IMG/VR virus record: IMGVR_UViG_2654587792_000025
Length of the DNA stretch: 14,932 bases
Origin: a virus
Taxonomy: Duplodnaviria; Heunggongvirae; Uroviricota; Caudoviricetes
Reading direction: 5' to 3' (one strand)
Below the pieces are notes generated by a model. That model did no database searches, was not told the origin of the DNA, and saw nothing but the letters and a program-made list of their open reading frames with translations. Made by a program: the position numbers and the translations under genes. Of this stretch, positions 8,283 through 12,828 are shown piece by piece; position 1 is the first letter of the stretch; each line of letters starts with the position of its first letter.

Positions 8283-8325
8283 GTGCTTTCCTTTGTTTTT
8301 TAAACAAATTGTTTTCTAGTATTAG

Positions 8326-9340: not shown

Positions 9341-10414
9341 GTGGATATTGTCACCATGCGCATGAATAGACTTCCAGGATATGGCCTTCCCGAACTGGCT
9401 TTTTGGCCTCAGCCTAAATATGAACGGAATAAATGGTCGATGTTCTGTCTGAAACTCCGTAATGATGGAACCCTTGCTTGGTATCGGCGATATGTTGATC
9501 GTGGTATGCCAAACCACGCTTTTGATGACGACTACGATAACTATCCTGAAGCAAGAAAAGCGGCATTAGAGCTGAATAAAAACGTGAGCTTTGACATTGA
9601 AAAACTTCCTCTATCTATGTTTCAAAAGAAGTCATTGCGTTTGAAAGTTGACAAAGCACTCAAAGCCAAATCACGTCTCATGGATGAAGAGCATATAATG
9701 CTCAACGAAGCAATTAAGGCACACGCCAACGATCCGCGAGTGACATTAAATGAGTTAATAATTAACCCAGATTACGAAACTTTGCGTCAACCCCTTTTTG
9801 ACGTGCTAAGCGAGATGCCTTACTTACATTTTGTTTTTCTTCCCAAATTCCAAGTTTCACTTCAACTCGTTGCTCCTAACACTTGGGAATGTTCATATAA
9901 CAACAAAGCTAAGACAGCGAAGATCTGCTACCAAGAACGCATAGCCAGAGGTTTTGGTTTATCAGGTGCTGCACATTGGGGAAAAACAAAAGCGACTATT
10001 CGCTCAATGCTTCTGCCGCGTGCTAACCGGTTACTGCAACTCGCCAGCGTAAAAAGAATGCTGGATGAAGCTCTCAGGAATGGGCAAAAGGTACTGGTTG
10101 TTGGCAACTTTGTTTTCTGGTTTGAGGACAAAAATCAGGTAGGTTGGAGTGTTAAAGTTGCTAGCGAAAGCGAAACCACCTCAAGAGGCAATACGCTCTG
10201 GAAAGAAGGAACTATCATTTCAAAAAATCACGGTCGAATTGTCGTGCTGCCGTATACAAAAGAAAACGGTAAACATGTAAAAGGTTATACCAAGAATGCC
10301 CCTAACGACGGCAACGCAATTCCGAGACATAAGGATGAGTATGTCGAGTTGCCCTTTGAAATTTTGGATGGTGACTTGATGTTCAGTCTGTTCGGTGAGC
10401 TTAACTACGAATAG
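9341..10414 (+). CDS. Hypothetical protein (divergent from the replication operon); true start may be the ATG at 9356
   Basis: 357-aa ORF, the only long plus-strand gene in the interior. No confident motif. Confidence 0.6.
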   Translation: MDIVTMRMNRLPGYGLPELAFWPQPKYERNKWSMFCLKLRNDGTLAWYRRYVDRGMPNHAFDDDYDNYPEARKAALELNKNVSFDIEKLPLSMFQKKSLRLKVDKALKAKSRLMDEEHIMLNEAIKAHANDPRVTLNELIINPDYETLRQPLFDVLSEMPYLHFVFLPKFQVSLQLVAPNTWECSYNNKAKTAKICYQERIARGFGLSGAAHWGKTKATIRSMLLPRANRLLQLASVKRMLDEALRNGQKVLVVGNFVFWFEDKNQVGWSVKVASESETTSRGNTLWKEGTIISKNHGRIVVLPYTKENGKHVKGYTKNAPNDGNAIPRHKDEYVELPFEILDGDLMFSLFGELNYE

Positions 10415-10437
10415 CTTTCATAGAACGAAATATTTCT

Positions 10438-10463
10438 AAGGCTGTCCAATGCAGACCAGCCTT
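10438..10463. terminator. Hairpin (aaggctg ... cagcctt) between the convergent 357-aa and parB-like genes
   Basis: 7-bp outer stem with an imperfect inner stem; U-tracts are weak on both strands. Confidence 0.3.
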
Positions 10464-10474
10464 AGAGATTTATA

Positions 10475-10834
10475 TCAACCTTTCTTCATTAACTCGCGTT
10501 TAATTTCATCGGTTCGCATCGTGACATCGGCAGCGGTGATCGCCTCATTCAATTTCACGATGTCCTCGATTTCCTGCGGTGACTTCTCTGCCAGATGGAA
10601 AATGGCTGCTCGAATCACGTCAGAACGAGTGAACTTCTCGAAGCGAGGGATGAACTTCATCATCTCCAGCAGTTCGAAGTATTCGTCCTCCAGTGACATT
10701 GTGCGGCTTTTAATTTTCTCTTTGCCACGAGTCGGGCGTCCCTGTGGTCTGACTGGTTGGCGCAAAGGAGTTGTGTTCTTAGCCGGTGCATCAGGCTCTT
10801 TGCGCTTTGCTAGGTCACCCATTTTCATGGACAT
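10475..10834 (-). CDS. Small partition protein (ParG/ParB-like centromere-binding protein candidate)
   Basis: 119-aa ORF directly downstream of parA with a 1-nt overlap. The N-terminus is basic and Pro-rich. The call rests on position and size; no fold was verified. Confidence 0.5.
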   Translation of the reverse strand: MSMKMGDLAKRKEPDAPAKNTTPLRQPVRPQGRPTRGKEKIKSRTMSLEDEYFELLEMMKFIPRFEKFTRSDVIRAAIFHLAEKSPQEIEDIVKLNEAITAADVTMRTDEIKRELMKKG

Positions 10835-11502
10835 TATTCTTCTTCCTCCAGACTCAACAGATAATCTACAAATTCTTCAAACTCGGCTTCCGCCTTTTTG
10901 TCGCGCTCGCTACCGGTCATTTCAAAGATAGAACGACCAGACTCTTCCGCATCATCATAGACGTTGCGGTTATATAGATTGACTGGCGCAGACTCGATGC
11001 CAAACGTCTCAACAATCTCTTTAGCCGCCAGAATGCGAGACACTTGTGATGGCAAAGCCGGGCACTGGTTCATGACCGCGCGGACCTTCACTTTATCGTT
11101 TACATTACGAACATTGTCGATAATAGGATCAATGTCACGCAGAGATTTCAAATCACGACGCTTAGGACGAAGCGGGATAATGATAACGTCGGCCATCAGC
11201 ATCGCTTGTCGCTGAATTTCGGAGTCAAAGCCACCAGCATCTACCACTACAAACTCAGCTCTACCCTGAAGCGATTTTAGGTGCTTAATGATGTCATCCT
11301 GAACGTATGCAAAAGGAATCAGCTCAAGGTCTTCGTTCTGTCGACGGTCTTCACACCAGCTTGTTGTCGTGCGCTGAATATCTATATCAGTGATATAAAC
11401 CTTCTTCTTCTTTTTGACTTTCAGGCAAACGGCAATTTGCTGGGCAACGGTGGATTTGCCAGGCCCGCCCTTTGTGCCGCCAACCACAAAGATCTTGGTC
11501 AT
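10834..11502 (-). CDS. parA: ParA-family partition ATPase (small, type Ib-like)
   Basis: Deviant Walker A box KGGPGKST near the N-terminus (VVGGTKGGPGKSTVAQ); 222 aa. Confidence 0.8.
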   Translation of the reverse strand: MTKIFVVGGTKGGPGKSTVAQQIAVCLKVKKKKKVYITDIDIQRTTTSWCEDRRQNEDLELIPFAYVQDDIIKHLKSLQGRAEFVVVDAGGFDSEIQRQAMLMADVIIIPLRPKRRDLKSLRDIDPIIDNVRNVNDKVKVRAVMNQCPALPSQVSRILAAKEIVETFGIESAPVNLYNRNVYDDAEESGRSIFEMTGSERDKKAEAEFEEFVDYLLSLEEEE

Positions 11503-11627
11503 TGGAGAGTTCCCTTTGCGTATATAATTATCGTCTGAAACAACTTGTTTTCTTATATGTGATATAGCCTAAATGCCTACGGCTGCGGTGTAAAGGTTTA
11601 ATGATAGGTACATAGGTGGGCTTAATA

Positions 11628-11650
11628 ACAAAAAACCCGCCGTAGCGGGT
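11628..11650 (-). terminator. Rho-independent terminator (acccgc-cgta-gcgggt followed by UUUUUG on the minus strand)
   Basis: It directly abuts the stop codon of the 257-aa gene and separates that operon from parA. Confidence 0.6.
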
Positions 11651-12424
11651 TTATTGATTCATAGATCGTTTACTCAGAATGTTCACTATATGAGTACAAG
11701 CACCTGGGGTGAGATTGATTTTATTAGTCCCCCACTCTTCACGTCTTCGCATCTGGCCTCCGTCAGACTTACCGATATCCCACGGAATAAAACCACTTAC
11801 GCCACAGGCATCCTCACCCAATTCCTCTATAAAATTTTCGTTCTTCGTATCGTAAATTTCGACCAGTCCATGTTTGCGCATACTCACAGCCCAAAGAGTT
11901 GCGCCTTTTATCGTCTGTAACGTATCGCAAACCAAGTACTGATACTTATCTACGAGATAAAGGTAAGCAAAACTTGCGATGCCTAATCCCATATAATCAG
12001 CATGAGTAAAAACCCCTCTAATCTGCTTGGCGCTGACTTTTACTCCAGATTTATCCTTGATTGGAAACTCGCAGTAGGCCACGCGGAAGACTGTTTGGAC
12101 TGGCTGCCCCACATGCAACTTGTAGGATTCAATTTCTGCTCCTATCTCAAGAGGTGTGTAACCAGCACGTTTGAGTCGCTTAACTTCCTGCTCTTGGTAA
12201 TCAGGATCACATGACTCAAGACACTCGCCAACAATACAGCGTTCATAGGCCGAATCAACAAGCTCGTATTCGGTAAATCGAATTAGATCGAAACCTCGGG
12301 AGATAAAATAGAACTCACCGAGAGCGATAATTCTCGTCGCTCTCGGCATTTCAGACAAGACCTTGCTGTAGTCTTCTATTTCAGGGATTAATCTGTTCGC
12401 CTGACCAATTAGAGATGGTGCCAT
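11651..12424 (-). CDS. Hypothetical protein, second gene of a two-gene operon
   Basis: 257-aa ORF overlapping the upstream 139-aa ORF by 16 nt. No motif recognised. Confidence 0.55.
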   Translation of the reverse strand: MAPSLIGQANRLIPEIEDYSKVLSEMPRATRIIALGEFYFISRGFDLIRFTEYELVDSAYERCIVGECLESCDPDYQEQEVKRLKRAGYTPLEIGAEIESYKLHVGQPVQTVFRVAYCEFPIKDKSGVKVSAKQIRGVFTHADYMGLGIASFAYLYLVDKYQYLVCDTLQTIKGATLWAVSMRKHGLVEIYDTKNENFIEELGEDACGVSGFIPWDIGKSDGGQMRRREEWGTNKINLTPGACTHIVNILSKRSMNQ

Positions 12425-12828
12425 GAAGTATTCTGTGCCGTTGATGGTTCCATATCATCGATTTTACAGAATTTCTTCATAAAAGACTCTACAACTTGTT
12501 TGATTCGTGAAGAAATATCACGATCTAAACACTTCAAGTCAGGATATTGTTCAGCAACATCTAAAACAAAAGAGGTTCGTTTACCGTTAGCGACAACCTC
12601 GGCCAACGGTTTAACCAGTGACGTAGAATTAGAGACCTTTTCGGCACGCGCCACATCGCTCTTAAAAGTGACGATGAAGTGCTGGCGGTTAGCTGATTCA
12701 CGGCACAACATACGTCGCACTTCTACTGCGTCTTCACTGTTGTGAAAACGCATAGGAAATCTGTCGATAACCGCAGTATTGGTGCGGATCGTCTGCATAG
12801 AACGCGTATTGTCATGATAATTTAGCAT
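12409..12828 (-). CDS. Hypothetical protein, first gene of a two-gene operon
   Basis: 139-aa ORF. No motif recognised. Confidence 0.5.
   Translation of the reverse strand: MLNYHDNTRSMQTIRTNTAVIDRFPMRFHNSEDAVEVRRMLCRESANRQHFIVTFKSDVARAEKVSNSTSLVKPLAEVVANGKRTSFVLDVAEQYPDLKCLDRDISSRIKQVVESFMKKFCKIDDMEPSTAQNTSWHHL

What the first reader, a model, noticed from the sequence alone, without database searches (positions are those of the whole stretch)
10475..11502. Small ParA plus small ParB-like partition pair: evidence for a plasmid-prophage (phage-plasmid) lifestyle
A 222-aa deviant-Walker-A ATPase is followed, with a 1-nt overlap, by a 119-aa basic protein. This is the architecture of type Ib partition systems on low-copy plasmids. 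Together with lysis and replication genes and tRNAs, it suggests an extrachromosomal prophage rather than an integrating one. No obvious iterated centromere repeats are visible beside the genes, so the centromere is unlocated.
Basis: partly seen in the sequence, partly recalled or inferred. Interest (0 to 1): 0.5.

Follow-up and report, generated by a model that had tools for sequence, protein, structure and literature searches.

The report
Partition operon of SSU5-like phage-plasmid

Summary
Observation confirmed. On the minus strand, 10834..11502 encodes a 222-aa ParA with a deviant Walker A (KGGPGKST). 10475..10834 encodes a 119-aa basic protein (pI 9.6) whose ATG overlaps the ParA stop by 1 nt (TAATG).

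The window is 97-99% identical to SSU5-like phage-plasmids (Cyrano/pLF82, pECOH89-like plasmids) and 81% to SSU5. The par module occurs in 737 PLSDB plasmids. In 5,426 complete E. coli genomes it occurs at 265 places, all on plasmids.

ParA groups with partition ATPases: its best solved relative is ParF of TP228, and its best NCBIfam model is ParA_partition, far above MinD or BcsQ.

The partner belongs to a narrow orphan family confined to SSU5-like elements and always follows this ParA. It has a disordered basic tail with a conserved N-terminal motif, then a probable ribbon-helix-helix domain. That fold call rests on weak evidence only.

No repeat array exists. A 107-bp leader (11503-11609) is more conserved than synonymous sites. 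It holds a promoter, a unique TAGGC-N3-TAGGC pair and a 13-bp palindrome. That palindrome belongs to about 18 dispersed promoter-operators and persists in pMT1, which lacks this par. The centromere therefore remains unlocated.

Verdict: ordinary type Ib-like partition operon of a known phage-plasmid group.

The parts
10834..11502 (-). parA: 222-aa ParA/MinD-superfamily ATPase of type Ib size. It has a deviant Walker A (K11GGPGK16ST), Walker A' around D39, Walker B FVVVD88, and an acidic C-terminal tail.
   Evidence: ORF. NCBIfam ParA_partition E 1.9e-33, covering 9-213 of the protein and 6-202 of 203 model positions. PHROG 164 'ParA-like partition protein' E 4e-51. Best PDB match is ParF of TP228, 4dzz, E 1.2e-10. 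Orthologue annotated as ParA in SSU5, Cyrano and PhiR41_1.
10475..10834 (-). parB-like gene: 119-aa putative centromere-binding protein. Conserved N-terminal motif M-G-D-L-A-K-R (residues 5-11). Disordered basic linker with invariant P-Q-G-R-P-T-R-G-K. Putative ribbon-helix-helix core: strand I41-K-S-R-T-M-S47, helix 48-59, helix 70-82. Two extra C-terminal helices (86-97, 101-118).
11503..11609 (-). Conserved par leader. This is the upstream limit of the par cassette and the candidate promoter, operator and centromere region.
   Evidence: BLAST matches of most relatives stop at window 11608-11610 and 10471-10477. Mean identity over 11 relatives is 0.77 at -107..-40, against 0.51 and 0.57 at third codon positions of parA and parB, and 0.36 further upstream. 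Across 33 distinct leader haplotypes in IMG/VR the core from -95 to -34 is nearly invariant.
11566..11594 (-). Putative sigma-70 promoter: -35 TTTACA (11589-11594), 17-nt spacer, -10 TAGGCT (11566-11571).
   Evidence: Read. It scores 8 of 12, below the 9-of-12 threshold of the promoter scan, which reported none. The same TTTACA-17-TAGGCT arrangement is present in relative L019, and also in L013, where ParB is only 40% identical. L009 has TTGACC-17-TAACAT at the aligned place.
11567..11579 (-). TAGGC-ATT-TAGGC: two direct pentamer boxes with 8-bp spacing. The second box overlaps the -10 hexamer. This is the par-specific candidate site for the partner protein (autoregulation and/or centromere).
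   Evidence: It is the only TAGGC-N3-TAGGC in the window and in the whole 109,318-bp relative NZ_LR882992.1, where TAGGC itself is under-represented (102 observed against about 213 expected). In L019 the box pair is shifted by exactly 8 bp. Binding has not been tested.
11538..11550 (-). 13-bp palindrome AAACAAGTTGTTT, starting 16 nt downstream of the -10 hexamer and 36-48 nt upstream of the parA ATG. It is one member of a dispersed promoter-operator family of the phage-plasmid.
   Evidence: The relative NZ_LR882992.1 has 18 sites with at most 1 mismatch, against 0.67 expected and a maximum of 3 in shuffles. All 18 are intergenic and each lies downstream of a -10-like hexamer. The site is conserved upstream of parA wherever ParB is at least 50% identical. 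It is absent from the ParAB loci of Morganella, Photorhabdus and Xenorhabdus. Six copies remain in pMT1, which lacks this par pair.
11511..11515 (-). Shine-Dalgarno sequence AGGGA, 8 nt before the parA ATG.
   Evidence: Read.
10432..10469 (.). Hairpin: 13-nt arms, 92% complementary, 12-nt loop. It lies between the convergent parB-like gene and ORF 9341..10414 and is a likely bidirectional terminator. It is not conserved in relatives that have other neighbours.
   Evidence: Inverted repeat I6. Downstream sequences differ among relatives.
11633..11652 (-). Intrinsic terminator of the upstream gene (11651..12424). It insulates the par promoter from upstream transcription.
   Evidence: Terminator scan.

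Best explanation
This is the plasmid-partition operon of an SSU5-like phage-plasmid, built like a type Ib ParABS system.

Shown:
- A short deviant-Walker-A ParA is translationally coupled to a small basic protein.
- The pair is a conserved cassette in about 100-kb circular, non-mobilizable plasmids that also carry a complete siphovirus genome.
- The pair is never chromosomal in complete E. coli genomes.
- The partner gene is expressed in the lysogen of a 97%-identical element.

Inferred mechanism:
- The partner protein dimerises through a ribbon-helix-helix domain (strand about 41-47, helices 48-59 and 70-82) and binds a site in the 107-bp conserved leader. The best par-specific candidate is the TAGGC-N3-TAGGC pair that overlaps the -10 hexamer. 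Binding there would repress its own promoter and mark the plasmid.
- Its disordered basic tail presents the conserved N-terminal peptide (M-G-D-L-A-K-R) to ATP-bound, nucleoid-associated ParA dimers.
- The peptide stimulates ATP hydrolysis, as ParG Arg19 does for ParF.
- The resulting ParA gradient pulls sister plasmid copies apart, so each daughter inherits the roughly 5-copy prophage.
For: Identity of the element:
- The window is 97-98% identical to phage-plasmids CMS-2020a and Cyrano and 81% to SSU5, and 98% to circular E. coli plasmids over 92% of its length.
- The par cassette is in 737 plasmids, 703 of them non-mobilizable.
- In complete E. coli genomes there are 265 plasmid places and 0 chromosomal places.
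- Cyrano has 5.5 copies per cell, is inducible and makes virions, and CYRAN_29 is expressed in lysogeny (PMC9928086).
- The SSU5 supergroup is an established phage-plasmid group (PMC7969092).

ParA:
- ParA_partition E 1.9e-33 over its full length, against MinD 1e-6 and BcsQ 5e-6.
- Best solved relative is ParF of TP228.
- It is the only ParA in the complete relative.

Partner:
- It is always immediately downstream of this ParA, down to 26-40% identity and across three enterobacterial families.
- 73 of 73 IMG/VR loci with enough upstream DNA carry it.
- It has a disordered basic N-terminus plus a folded C-terminal domain.
- The invariant residues cluster in the putative strand and the start of helix 2.
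- There are weak ribbon-helix-helix profile hits.

Leader:
- It is more conserved than synonymous sites and nearly invariant across 33 haplotypes.

Precedent: the TP228 ParB (ParG) tail binds the ParA dimer interface and carries an arginine-finger-like residue (PMC5393062).
Against: - No experiment on this par pair was found.
- No iterated centromere array exists next to the genes. Two pentamer boxes are far fewer than in parH or parC.
- The most striking leader element, the palindrome, is shared with about 17 other promoters. The leader's conservation may therefore reflect transcriptional control rather than a centromere.
- ParA scores below the curated NCBIfam cut-off (115.7 against 180).
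- A preprint reports a chromosomally integrated plasmid in S. [quoted passage not shown] The module is therefore not strictly extrachromosomal everywhere.
- The circularity and coverage of the window's own contig could not be checked.
Confidence: 0.8

Rival explanations
1. Same partition pair, but the 119-aa protein is a KorB- or omega-like global regulator. In this reading it binds the roughly 18 dispersed AAACAA-N-TTGTTT palindromes. These would then serve both as operators of the replication, nucleotide-metabolism and late operons and as a distributed centromere, as with the dispersed sopC sites of N15. Partition and silencing of lytic genes would be coupled.
For: - A perfect palindrome sits in the par leader, as expected for an autoregulated centromere-binding protein.
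- The relative has 18 sites against 0.67 expected, all intergenic and at a fixed distance from -10 hexamers.
- A 13-bp palindrome is the size of the KorB operator (own knowledge) and is compatible with a dimer of ribbon-helix-helix dimers.
- The palindrome co-occurs with ParB proteins that share the strand K-S-R-T-M-S, down to 50% identity.
- No other binder has been identified.
Against: - pMT1 of Y. pestis has no homologue of either protein (tblastn) and uses a type Ia ParAB, yet it keeps six palindromes in the same promoter context. This is weak evidence, because pMT1 diverged recently.
- The Morganella, Photorhabdus and Xenorhabdus relatives keep nearly the same strand residues (S-R-T-x-S) but have no such palindrome in 20 kb around par.
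- In the Cyrano lysogen the par partner is expressed 9-fold above background, while most operator-bearing operons are at background. That pattern fits a separate prophage repressor better.
- The operator also heads the late packaging operon (sites at 63399 and 63424), which is typical of a master lytic repressor.
Confidence: 0.12
2. ParA works with a different centromere-binding protein: one of the two ParB-N-terminal-domain proteins encoded about 33 kb away in relatives. The 119-aa protein would then be only a transcriptional autoregulator or an adaptor.
For: Complete relatives encode two ParB_N proteins, with Pfam E 1e-8 and 3e-13. The 119-aa protein has no established DNA-binding fold.
Against: - The ParB_N genes sit in the late region, beside an ABC-type ATPase gene and a few genes from the terminase.
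- They are retained in pMT1, which has its own type Ia ParAB.
- They score below the partition-ParB cut-offs.
- Small ParAs of this size are known to pair with the adjacent small gene (established knowledge of type Ib systems; PMC5393062).
- The tight coupling of parA with the 119-aa gene is conserved down to 26-40% identity.
Confidence: 0.05
3. The pair is not a partition system. It could be a toxin-antitoxin or defence module, as the 'RelE/ParE putative toxin' annotation of CYRAN_29 implies, or a MinD/MipZ-like positioning ATPase that acts on the host.
For: Cyrano annotates the orthologue as a RelE/ParE toxin. PGAP sometimes names ParA 'division plane positioning ATPase MipZ'. The top Pfam hit is MipZ. 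In relatives the flanks of par carry TA and defence-type genes.
Against: - There is no RelE/ParE hit in Pfam, NCBIfam or PADLOC for the 119-aa protein.
- The MipZ match covers only the N-terminal 130 residues, whereas ParA_partition and ParF match the full length.
- MinD scores 28 bits against a cut-off of 213.
- The pair is a core gene pair of a low-copy plasmid group that needs active partition.
Confidence: 0.03

Closest known systems
ParF-ParG-parH of plasmid TP228 (type Ib)
   Same: - A small ParA without an N-terminal DNA-binding domain. ParF is the closest solved relative (E 1.2e-10).
- The adjacent small partner has a disordered N-terminal tail and a C-terminal DNA-binding domain.
- The cis site is expected upstream of parA and to double as the operator.
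[quoted passage not shown]
   Different: - The partner shows no detectable sequence relation to ParG (hhalign).
- It is 119 aa rather than 76 aa and has two extra C-terminal helices.
- Only two boxes are present, instead of an array of about 100 bp.
- The conserved tail motif is at the extreme N-terminus, with Lys10/Arg11 in place of Arg19.
delta-omega-parS of pSM19035, and IncC-KorB-OB of RK2
   Same: In both, the centromere-binding protein is also a global transcriptional regulator whose short sites lie in several promoters. This is a possible model for the dispersed 13-bp palindrome, one copy of which is in the par leader.
   Different: - There is no sequence relation to omega.
- KorB is a large HTH ParB, not a small protein.
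- Binding of the 119-aa protein to the palindrome is untested, and the pMT1 comparison argues against it.
ParAB of pCXC100 and SegAB of Sulfolobus (small ParA with a cryptic ribbon-helix-helix partner)
   Different: The scores are not significant and the hit was not reproduced with the better model. The hosts are unrelated.
ParAB-parS of phage-plasmid P1, SopAB of N15, and ParAB of pMT1 (type Ia)
   Same: Same biological role: active partition of a low-copy plasmid prophage. pMT1 belongs to the same SSU5 supergroup (PMC7969092).
   Different: Those systems use ParAs of about 400 aa and HTH ParBs of about 320 aa with defined parS sites (the pMT1 genes are seen). The present pair is the small type and is absent from pMT1.
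SSU5_033 'ParA-like partition protein' of Salmonella phage SSU5, and CYRAN_28/CYRAN_29 of Escherichia phage Cyrano (pLF82)
   Same: These are direct orthologues in the same synteny: tail fibre, lysis, par, helicase, primase, ligase. Cyrano is 97.6% identical over 73% of the window.
   Different: - In SSU5 the gene annotated next after parA (SSU5_034, 96 aa) is not the orthologue: the parB-like frame ends before it (read) and appears unannotated there (not translated).
- Cyrano labels the partner a RelE/ParE toxin, which my scans do not support.
- The genes flanking par differ.

Membership tests
ParA/MinD superfamily (deviant Walker A ATPases) | Deviant Walker A motif KGGxxGK[ST] with the signature N-terminal lysine | tested here: met
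   K11-G-G-P-G-K16-S-T in the translation. Pfam AAA_31, CbiA and MipZ score above their cut-offs.
Type Ib plasmid partition system | Short ParA (about 190-310 aa) lacking the N-terminal HTH domain of type Ia ParAs | tested here: met
   ParA is 222 aa with Walker A starting at residue 11. It aligns along its full length to the 203-position ParA_partition model and to the 206-aa ParF.
Type Ib plasmid partition system | Small centromere-binding protein gene immediately downstream, in the same operon | tested here: met
   The genes overlap by 1 nt, TAATG. The adjacency is conserved in all relatives examined. 73 of 73 IMG/VR loci have it.
Type Ib plasmid partition system | Partner protein is a dimeric ribbon-helix-helix DNA-binding protein with a flexible tail that contacts ParA | tested here: inconclusive
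Type Ib plasmid partition system | Centromere of iterated short repeats next to the operon, bound by the partner protein | tested here: inconclusive
   No array was found. A conserved 107-bp leader holds two TAGGC boxes, unique in the element, and one palindrome shared with about 17 other promoters. Binding has not been tested.
Type Ib plasmid partition system | Stabilises a low-copy replicon and exerts centromere-based incompatibility | not testable with these tools
   This needs a plasmid-stability assay. No published assay was found.
NCBIfam NF041546 ParA_partition (equivalog) | Score at or above the curated cut-off of 180 bits | tested here: not met
   The score is 115.7 bits, E 1.9e-33. 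It is the best family by far but below the cut-off. This ParA is a divergent relative, not an equivalog member.
ParG family (TP228) and omega family (pSM19035) | Detectable sequence homology of the partner protein | tested here: not met
   MinD scores 28 bits against a cut-off of 212.9. BcsQ scores 26 bits against 157.9. The MipZ matches in Pfam and PDB cover only residues 2-132.
SSU5-like phage-plasmids (SSU5 supergroup) | One replicon carries a complete tailed-phage gene set plus plasmid replication and partition genes | tested here: met
   The window has lysis, par, helicase, primase and ligase genes. The complete relative NZ_LR882992.1 adds tail, head and terminase genes and iteron-like repeats at 109086-109298.
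SSU5-like phage-plasmids (SSU5 supergroup) | Maintained extrachromosomally as a circular plasmid, not integrated | tested here: met
   This holds for relatives: 265 of 265 places in complete E. coli genomes are on plasmids, the PLSDB records are circular, and Cyrano has 5.5 copies per cell. The window's own contig topology could not be tested.
RelE/ParE toxins (annotation of the orthologue in Cyrano) | Match to RelE/ParE family models | tested here: not met
   There is no such hit in Pfam (E up to 1), NCBIfam (E up to 1) or PADLOC.

The most novel reading that the evidence does not exclude
The 119-aa protein founds a new family of centromere-binding proteins that also act as the global regulator of the phage-plasmid. 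By binding the roughly 18 dispersed AAACAA-N-TTGTTT operators it would both silence or tune the lytic, replication and late operons and provide a distributed centromere. Plasmid segregation would then be mechanistically coupled to the lysis-lysogeny state, a KorB/omega-like logic not yet described for a phage-plasmid.
Probability: 0.12. Interest if true: 0.7.

Novelty: new member of a known kind. Interest (0 to 1): 0.3.

Why it matters
SSU5-like phage-plasmids are common in clinical Enterobacteriaceae: 264 of 5,426 complete E. coli genomes carry this par cassette. They also carry resistance genes (abstracts of PMC9600943 and PMC12217456).

How they persist as low-copy plasmids has not been characterised experimentally in the papers searched. 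Databases label the partner protein 'hypothetical' or, wrongly, a toxin.

Recognising the pair as a type Ib-like operon, with a defined 107-bp candidate cis region, gives a small cassette that can be tested directly for stability, incompatibility and curing. The finding does not change what is known about the biology of these elements.

Tried and rejected
- **Iterated centromere repeats.** I looked beside the genes, in the whole window and in a complete relative using repeat finder and TRF. Nothing lies near par. The only iteron-like array is at the replication origin of the relative, outside the window.
- **A second cis site downstream of parB (parC2-like).** Downstream DNA is not conserved among relatives. 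A 12-nt TAGGCATTTAGG match downstream in SSU5 and L017 lies inside a gene and is within chance expectation.
- **Fold assignment of the partner.**
  - Two AF2 models were made (pLDDT 64 and 72).
  - Foldseek against PDB found nothing.
  - Profile and single-sequence searches of PDB sequences found nothing.
  - hhalign against ParG and omega found nothing.
- **Who binds the dispersed palindrome.**
  - The pMT1 comparison argues against ParB, but weakly.
  - Distant ParAB loci lack the palindrome, and no alternative dispersed palindrome was found there.
  - Their helicase has no comparable intergenic promoter, so the covariation test could not be made.
  - The 80 IMG/VR helicase loci were too closely related to give a counter-example.
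- **A second ParA in the element.** The 214-aa 'AAA ATPase' of the relative is a nucleotide-kinase-like protein, not a ParA.
- **Flanking ORFs** (9341..10414, 11651..12424, 12409..12828, 127..741). No Pfam or PADLOC match.
- **Rfam.** Only two of the three tRNAs, and nothing in the par region.
- **Literature.** No paper in the held library describes this par pair, its centromere or the operator.
Full report
**1. The observation**

ParA is 10834..11502 (222 aa) and the second protein is 10475..10834 (119 aa).

ParA has the deviant Walker A K11-GGPGK16-ST almost at its N-terminus. The parA stop codon and the next ATG share one base, TAATG.

The second protein is basic overall (pI 9.56). Its charge is polarised: residues 1-46 have pI 11.4 and residues 47-119 have pI 5.0.

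RefSeq starts the orthologue two codons later, giving 117 aa and a 5-nt gap. The first ATG is better spaced from a GGAGG, which is my inference from the sequence.

Repeat searches confirm that there is no iterated array beside the genes.

**2. What element this is**

The window is 97-98% identical to Escherichia phage-plasmids CMS-2020a and Cyrano (pLF82) and 81% to Salmonella phage SSU5. It is 98% identical over 92% of its length to circular E. coli plasmids of about 104-109 kb.

The gene order in Cyrano and SSU5 is tail fibre, holin/endolysin/spanins, par, helicase, primase, ligase, tRNAs. Pfam confirms the ligase, primase and DnaB-like helicase in the window.

Distribution of the par cassette:
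- It occurs in 737 PLSDB plasmids, mostly from Klebsiella, Escherichia, Enterobacter and Salmonella. Of these, 703 are typed non-mobilizable.
- In 5,426 complete E. coli genomes it occurs in 264 genomes at 265 places. All are on plasmids and none is on a chromosome.

Cyrano was measured at 5.5 copies per cell, is induced 39-fold by ciprofloxacin, and virions of matching dimensions, attributed to it, were seen (PMC9928086). SSU5 and its relatives are a recognised phage-plasmid supergroup (PMC7969092).

Relatives carry a tyrosine integrase just beyond the left end of the window. A role in multimer resolution is my inference.

One preprint mentions a chromosomally integrated plasmid in S. [quoted passage not shown]

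**3. ParA**

- The best family model is NCBIfam ParA_partition: E 1.9e-33, full length, 115.7 bits, below the equivalog cut-off of 180. MinD (1.3e-6) and BcsQ (5e-6) are far behind.
- PHROG 164 'ParA-like partition protein' matches at 4e-51.
- The best solved relative is ParF of TP228, the archetypal type Ib ATPase (E 1.2e-10 over residues 9-199). MipZ matches only the N-terminal 130 residues.
- It is the only ParA homologue in a complete relative.
- PGAP calls it 'AAA family ATPase' or 'MipZ'. The second name is misleading.

**4. The partner protein**

It has no Pfam family, and its PHROG (5111) has no known function.

The family is very narrow:
- 25 clusters match in a 5.8-billion-protein search.
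- 18 representatives match when a profile is run against 1.84 billion cluster representatives.

Every member whose context I could see lies directly after this type of ParA, in the same synteny. This includes homologues of 26-40% identity. They come from metagenomic or draft contigs and from contigs of about 27-109 kb (three of them about 100 kb) of Morganella, Photorhabdus and Xenorhabdus. All 73 IMG/VR loci with enough upstream DNA carry it.

The alignments show three blocks:
- An N-terminal motif, M-G-D-L-A-K-R. L8 is invariant and K10 is present in at least 90% of members.
- A variable, low-complexity linker ending in a basic block, P-Q-G-R-P-T-R-G-K.
- A core, I-K-S-R-T-M-S-x-E-D-E ... 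F-T-R-S-D-V-I-R-A-A-I. The invariant residues lie where a ribbon-helix-helix protein has its DNA-reading strand and the N-terminus of helix 2.

AF2 with the wider alignment gives a confident helical domain (residues 48-118; pLDDT 86-93 for 70-110) and a disordered region 1-47.

Direct support for the ribbon-helix-helix fold is weak, though it points one way:
- 11 of 15 members hit NCBIfam aCcr1 at about 1e-4. aCcr1 is a small archaeal ribbon-helix-helix regulator (own knowledge).
- 2 of 15 members hit Pfam RHH_1.

The better model, Foldseek, PDB sequence profiles and hhalign against ParG or omega gave nothing. I therefore call the fold probable but not shown.

There is precedent for type Ib partners whose ribbon-helix-helix fold is invisible by sequence: pCXC100 ParB (PMC3074162).

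The 'RelE/ParE putative toxin' label of the Cyrano orthologue has no support. That orthologue is transcribed 9-fold above the prophage background in the lysogen, as expected for a maintenance gene.

**5. Cis-acting DNA**

BLAST matches of most relatives end at window 10471-10477 and 11608-11610. The mobile unit is therefore the two genes plus 107 bp of leader. The neighbours on both sides are interchangeable: in relatives they include KacAT, HEPN, Abi_2, DUF2971 and P-loop NTPase genes.

Conservation of the leader:
- Over 11 relatives it is 77% conserved at -107..-40. Third codon positions are 51-57% conserved, and DNA further upstream 36%.
- Across 33 leader haplotypes in IMG/VR the core from -95 to -34 is nearly invariant.

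The leader reads TTTACA-17 nt-TAGGCT, a plausible promoter scoring 8 of 12, below the scanner's threshold. The same geometry is present in relatives L019, L009 and L013.

Two elements stand out.

(a) TAGGC-ATT-TAGGC at 11567-11579.
- The second box is the -10 hexamer.
- This pair is unique in the window and in a complete 109-kb relative.
- In L019 the pair is shifted by exactly 8 bp.

(b) The 13-bp palindrome AAACAAGTTGTTT at 11538-11550, starting 16 nt after the -10 hexamer.

The palindrome is not specific to par:
- A second copy lies upstream of the helicase, at 8302-8314.
- The complete relative has 18 copies with at most 1 mismatch, against 0.67 expected and a maximum of 3 in shuffles. All are intergenic and each follows a -10-like hexamer by about 10-15 nt. 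They lie ahead of replication, nucleotide-metabolism and late (packaging) operons.
- pMT1 of Y. pestis lacks both par proteins and uses a type Ia ParAB, yet it keeps six copies in the same context.
- The distant ParAB loci keep the S-R-T-x-S strand residues but have no such palindrome.

On balance the palindrome looks like the operator of a global regulator of the prophage, and the TAGGC pair is the better par-specific candidate.

**6. Mechanism**

Shown: the gene pair, its coupling, its conservation as a cassette, its exclusive plasmid location, and its expression in lysogeny.

Inferred from established knowledge of type Ib systems (TP228, pSM19035, pB171; PMC5393062, PMC7308502, PMC9499535):
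- Partner dimers bind the leader, repress the promoter and form the partition complex.
- The flexible tail delivers the N-terminal peptide to the dimer interface of ATP-bound, nucleoid-bound ParA.
- A basic residue, K10 or R11, plays the part of ParG Arg19.
- ATP hydrolysis releases ParA locally, and the plasmid follows the receding ParA gradient.

I put 0.8 on 'partition operon of a phage-plasmid working in this general way'. I put much less on any particular binding site.

**7. Comparison and membership**

It works like a type Ib system.
- Tested and met: deviant Walker A, short ParA, and an adjacent small partner in one operon.
- Inconclusive: the ribbon-helix-helix fold and an iterated centromere.
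- Not testable here: stabilisation.

It is not a member of the ParG or omega families, and ParA is below the NCBIfam equivalog cut-off. It is not MinD, BcsQ or MipZ, and it is not RelE/ParE.

**8. Novelty and interest**

The element, its plasmid lifestyle and its ParA are already known and annotated.

Not described in the literature I could search:
- The partner family and its likely role.
- The boundaries of the cassette.
- The conserved leader.
- The dispersed operator.

This makes it a new member of a known kind and of modest interest (0.3).

The most novel reading not excluded is that the partner is a KorB/omega-like global regulator using the dispersed palindromes as a distributed centromere. 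I give this probability about 0.12; it would be interesting if true.

Noticed in passing
window 8302-8314 and 11538-11550; L010+L011+L012 (NZ_LR882992.1) at 3211, 15621, 29412, 32648, 63399, 63424, 72768, 73532, 74435, 74919, 75296, 78093, 78144, 86521, 89428, 90142, 90871, 101091: A dispersed 13-bp palindrome, AAACAA-N-TTGTTT, occurs 18 times per genome against 0.67 expected. It is always intergenic, about 10-15 nt downstream of a -10-like hexamer and 10-45 nt before a start codon. It heads replication, nucleotide-metabolism, par and late operons. It looks like the operator set of a global regulator of SSU5-like phage-plasmids. I found no description of it in the papers searched. Six copies persist in pMT1.
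   Followed up: partly
window 9341-10414 (+), 11651-12828 (-), and 1-742: The DNA on both sides of the par cassette is a variable cargo slot. This window has ORFs of 357, 257 and 139 aa with no Pfam or PADLOC match. Cyrano has a KacAT toxin-antitoxin pair and other genes there. Other relatives have HEPN, Abi_2, DUF2971 or P-loop NTPase genes. The distance from parB to the helicase ranges from 986 to 3000 bp in 73 IMG/VR loci.
   Followed up: partly
window 922-1374: A tRNA cluster (Ser-TGA, Thr-TGT, Asn-GTT). The Thr and Asn genes are about 90% identical to the tRNA region of phages P1 and P7, an otherwise unrelated phage-plasmid group. Rfam at gathering threshold reported only two of the three tRNAs.
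   Followed up: no
L001 12115-12474 (CYRAN_29); RefSeq records: Annotation problems in public records. The partner gene is called 'RelE/ParE putative toxin' in Cyrano and counted as a moron in PMC9928086. ParA is named 'division plane positioning ATPase MipZ' or 'Iron-sulfur cluster carrier protein' in some records. In one record (OW849307.1) the PLSDB gene table lists no ParA gene.
   Followed up: yes
L011 15608-16956 (NZ_LR882992.1 65608-66956); L025 30707-32073 (pMT1): Two adjacent genes for ParB-N-terminal-domain proteins (222 and 226 aa) lie in the late region, a few genes from the terminase. They are conserved even in pMT1, which has its own type Ia ParAB. They are probably a phage function rather than the partner of this ParA.
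   Followed up: partly
L012 9086-9298 (NZ_LR882992.1 109086-109298); L011 20797-20843: Iteron-like tandem repeats (period 42/21, containing TGTCAGCGG) lie near the record start of the relative, probably the plasmid origin. A separate run of five 9-bp repeats, TCTGGTAAA, lies inside a hypothetical gene at 70797-70843.
   Followed up: no
L015, L019, L020: Contigs labelled as MAGs of Bacillota, 'Candidatus Fimivivens' and Sphingobacterium carry this enterobacterial par cassette, with ParB 95%, 61% and 52% identical. This looks like metagenome binning contamination by phage-plasmid contigs.
   Followed up: no
window 127-741 (+): A 204-aa ORF with a TTG start contains an R-x4-H motif (RHTIVH), reminiscent of HEPN domains. 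It has no Pfam or PADLOC hit. This part of the window is absent from Cyrano and from NZ_LR882992.1.
   Followed up: no
window 5679-6932 (-): The longest primase ORF (417 aa, GTG start) is 46 codons longer than the primase annotated in relatives (1116 nt). The real start is probably the internal one.
   Followed up: no
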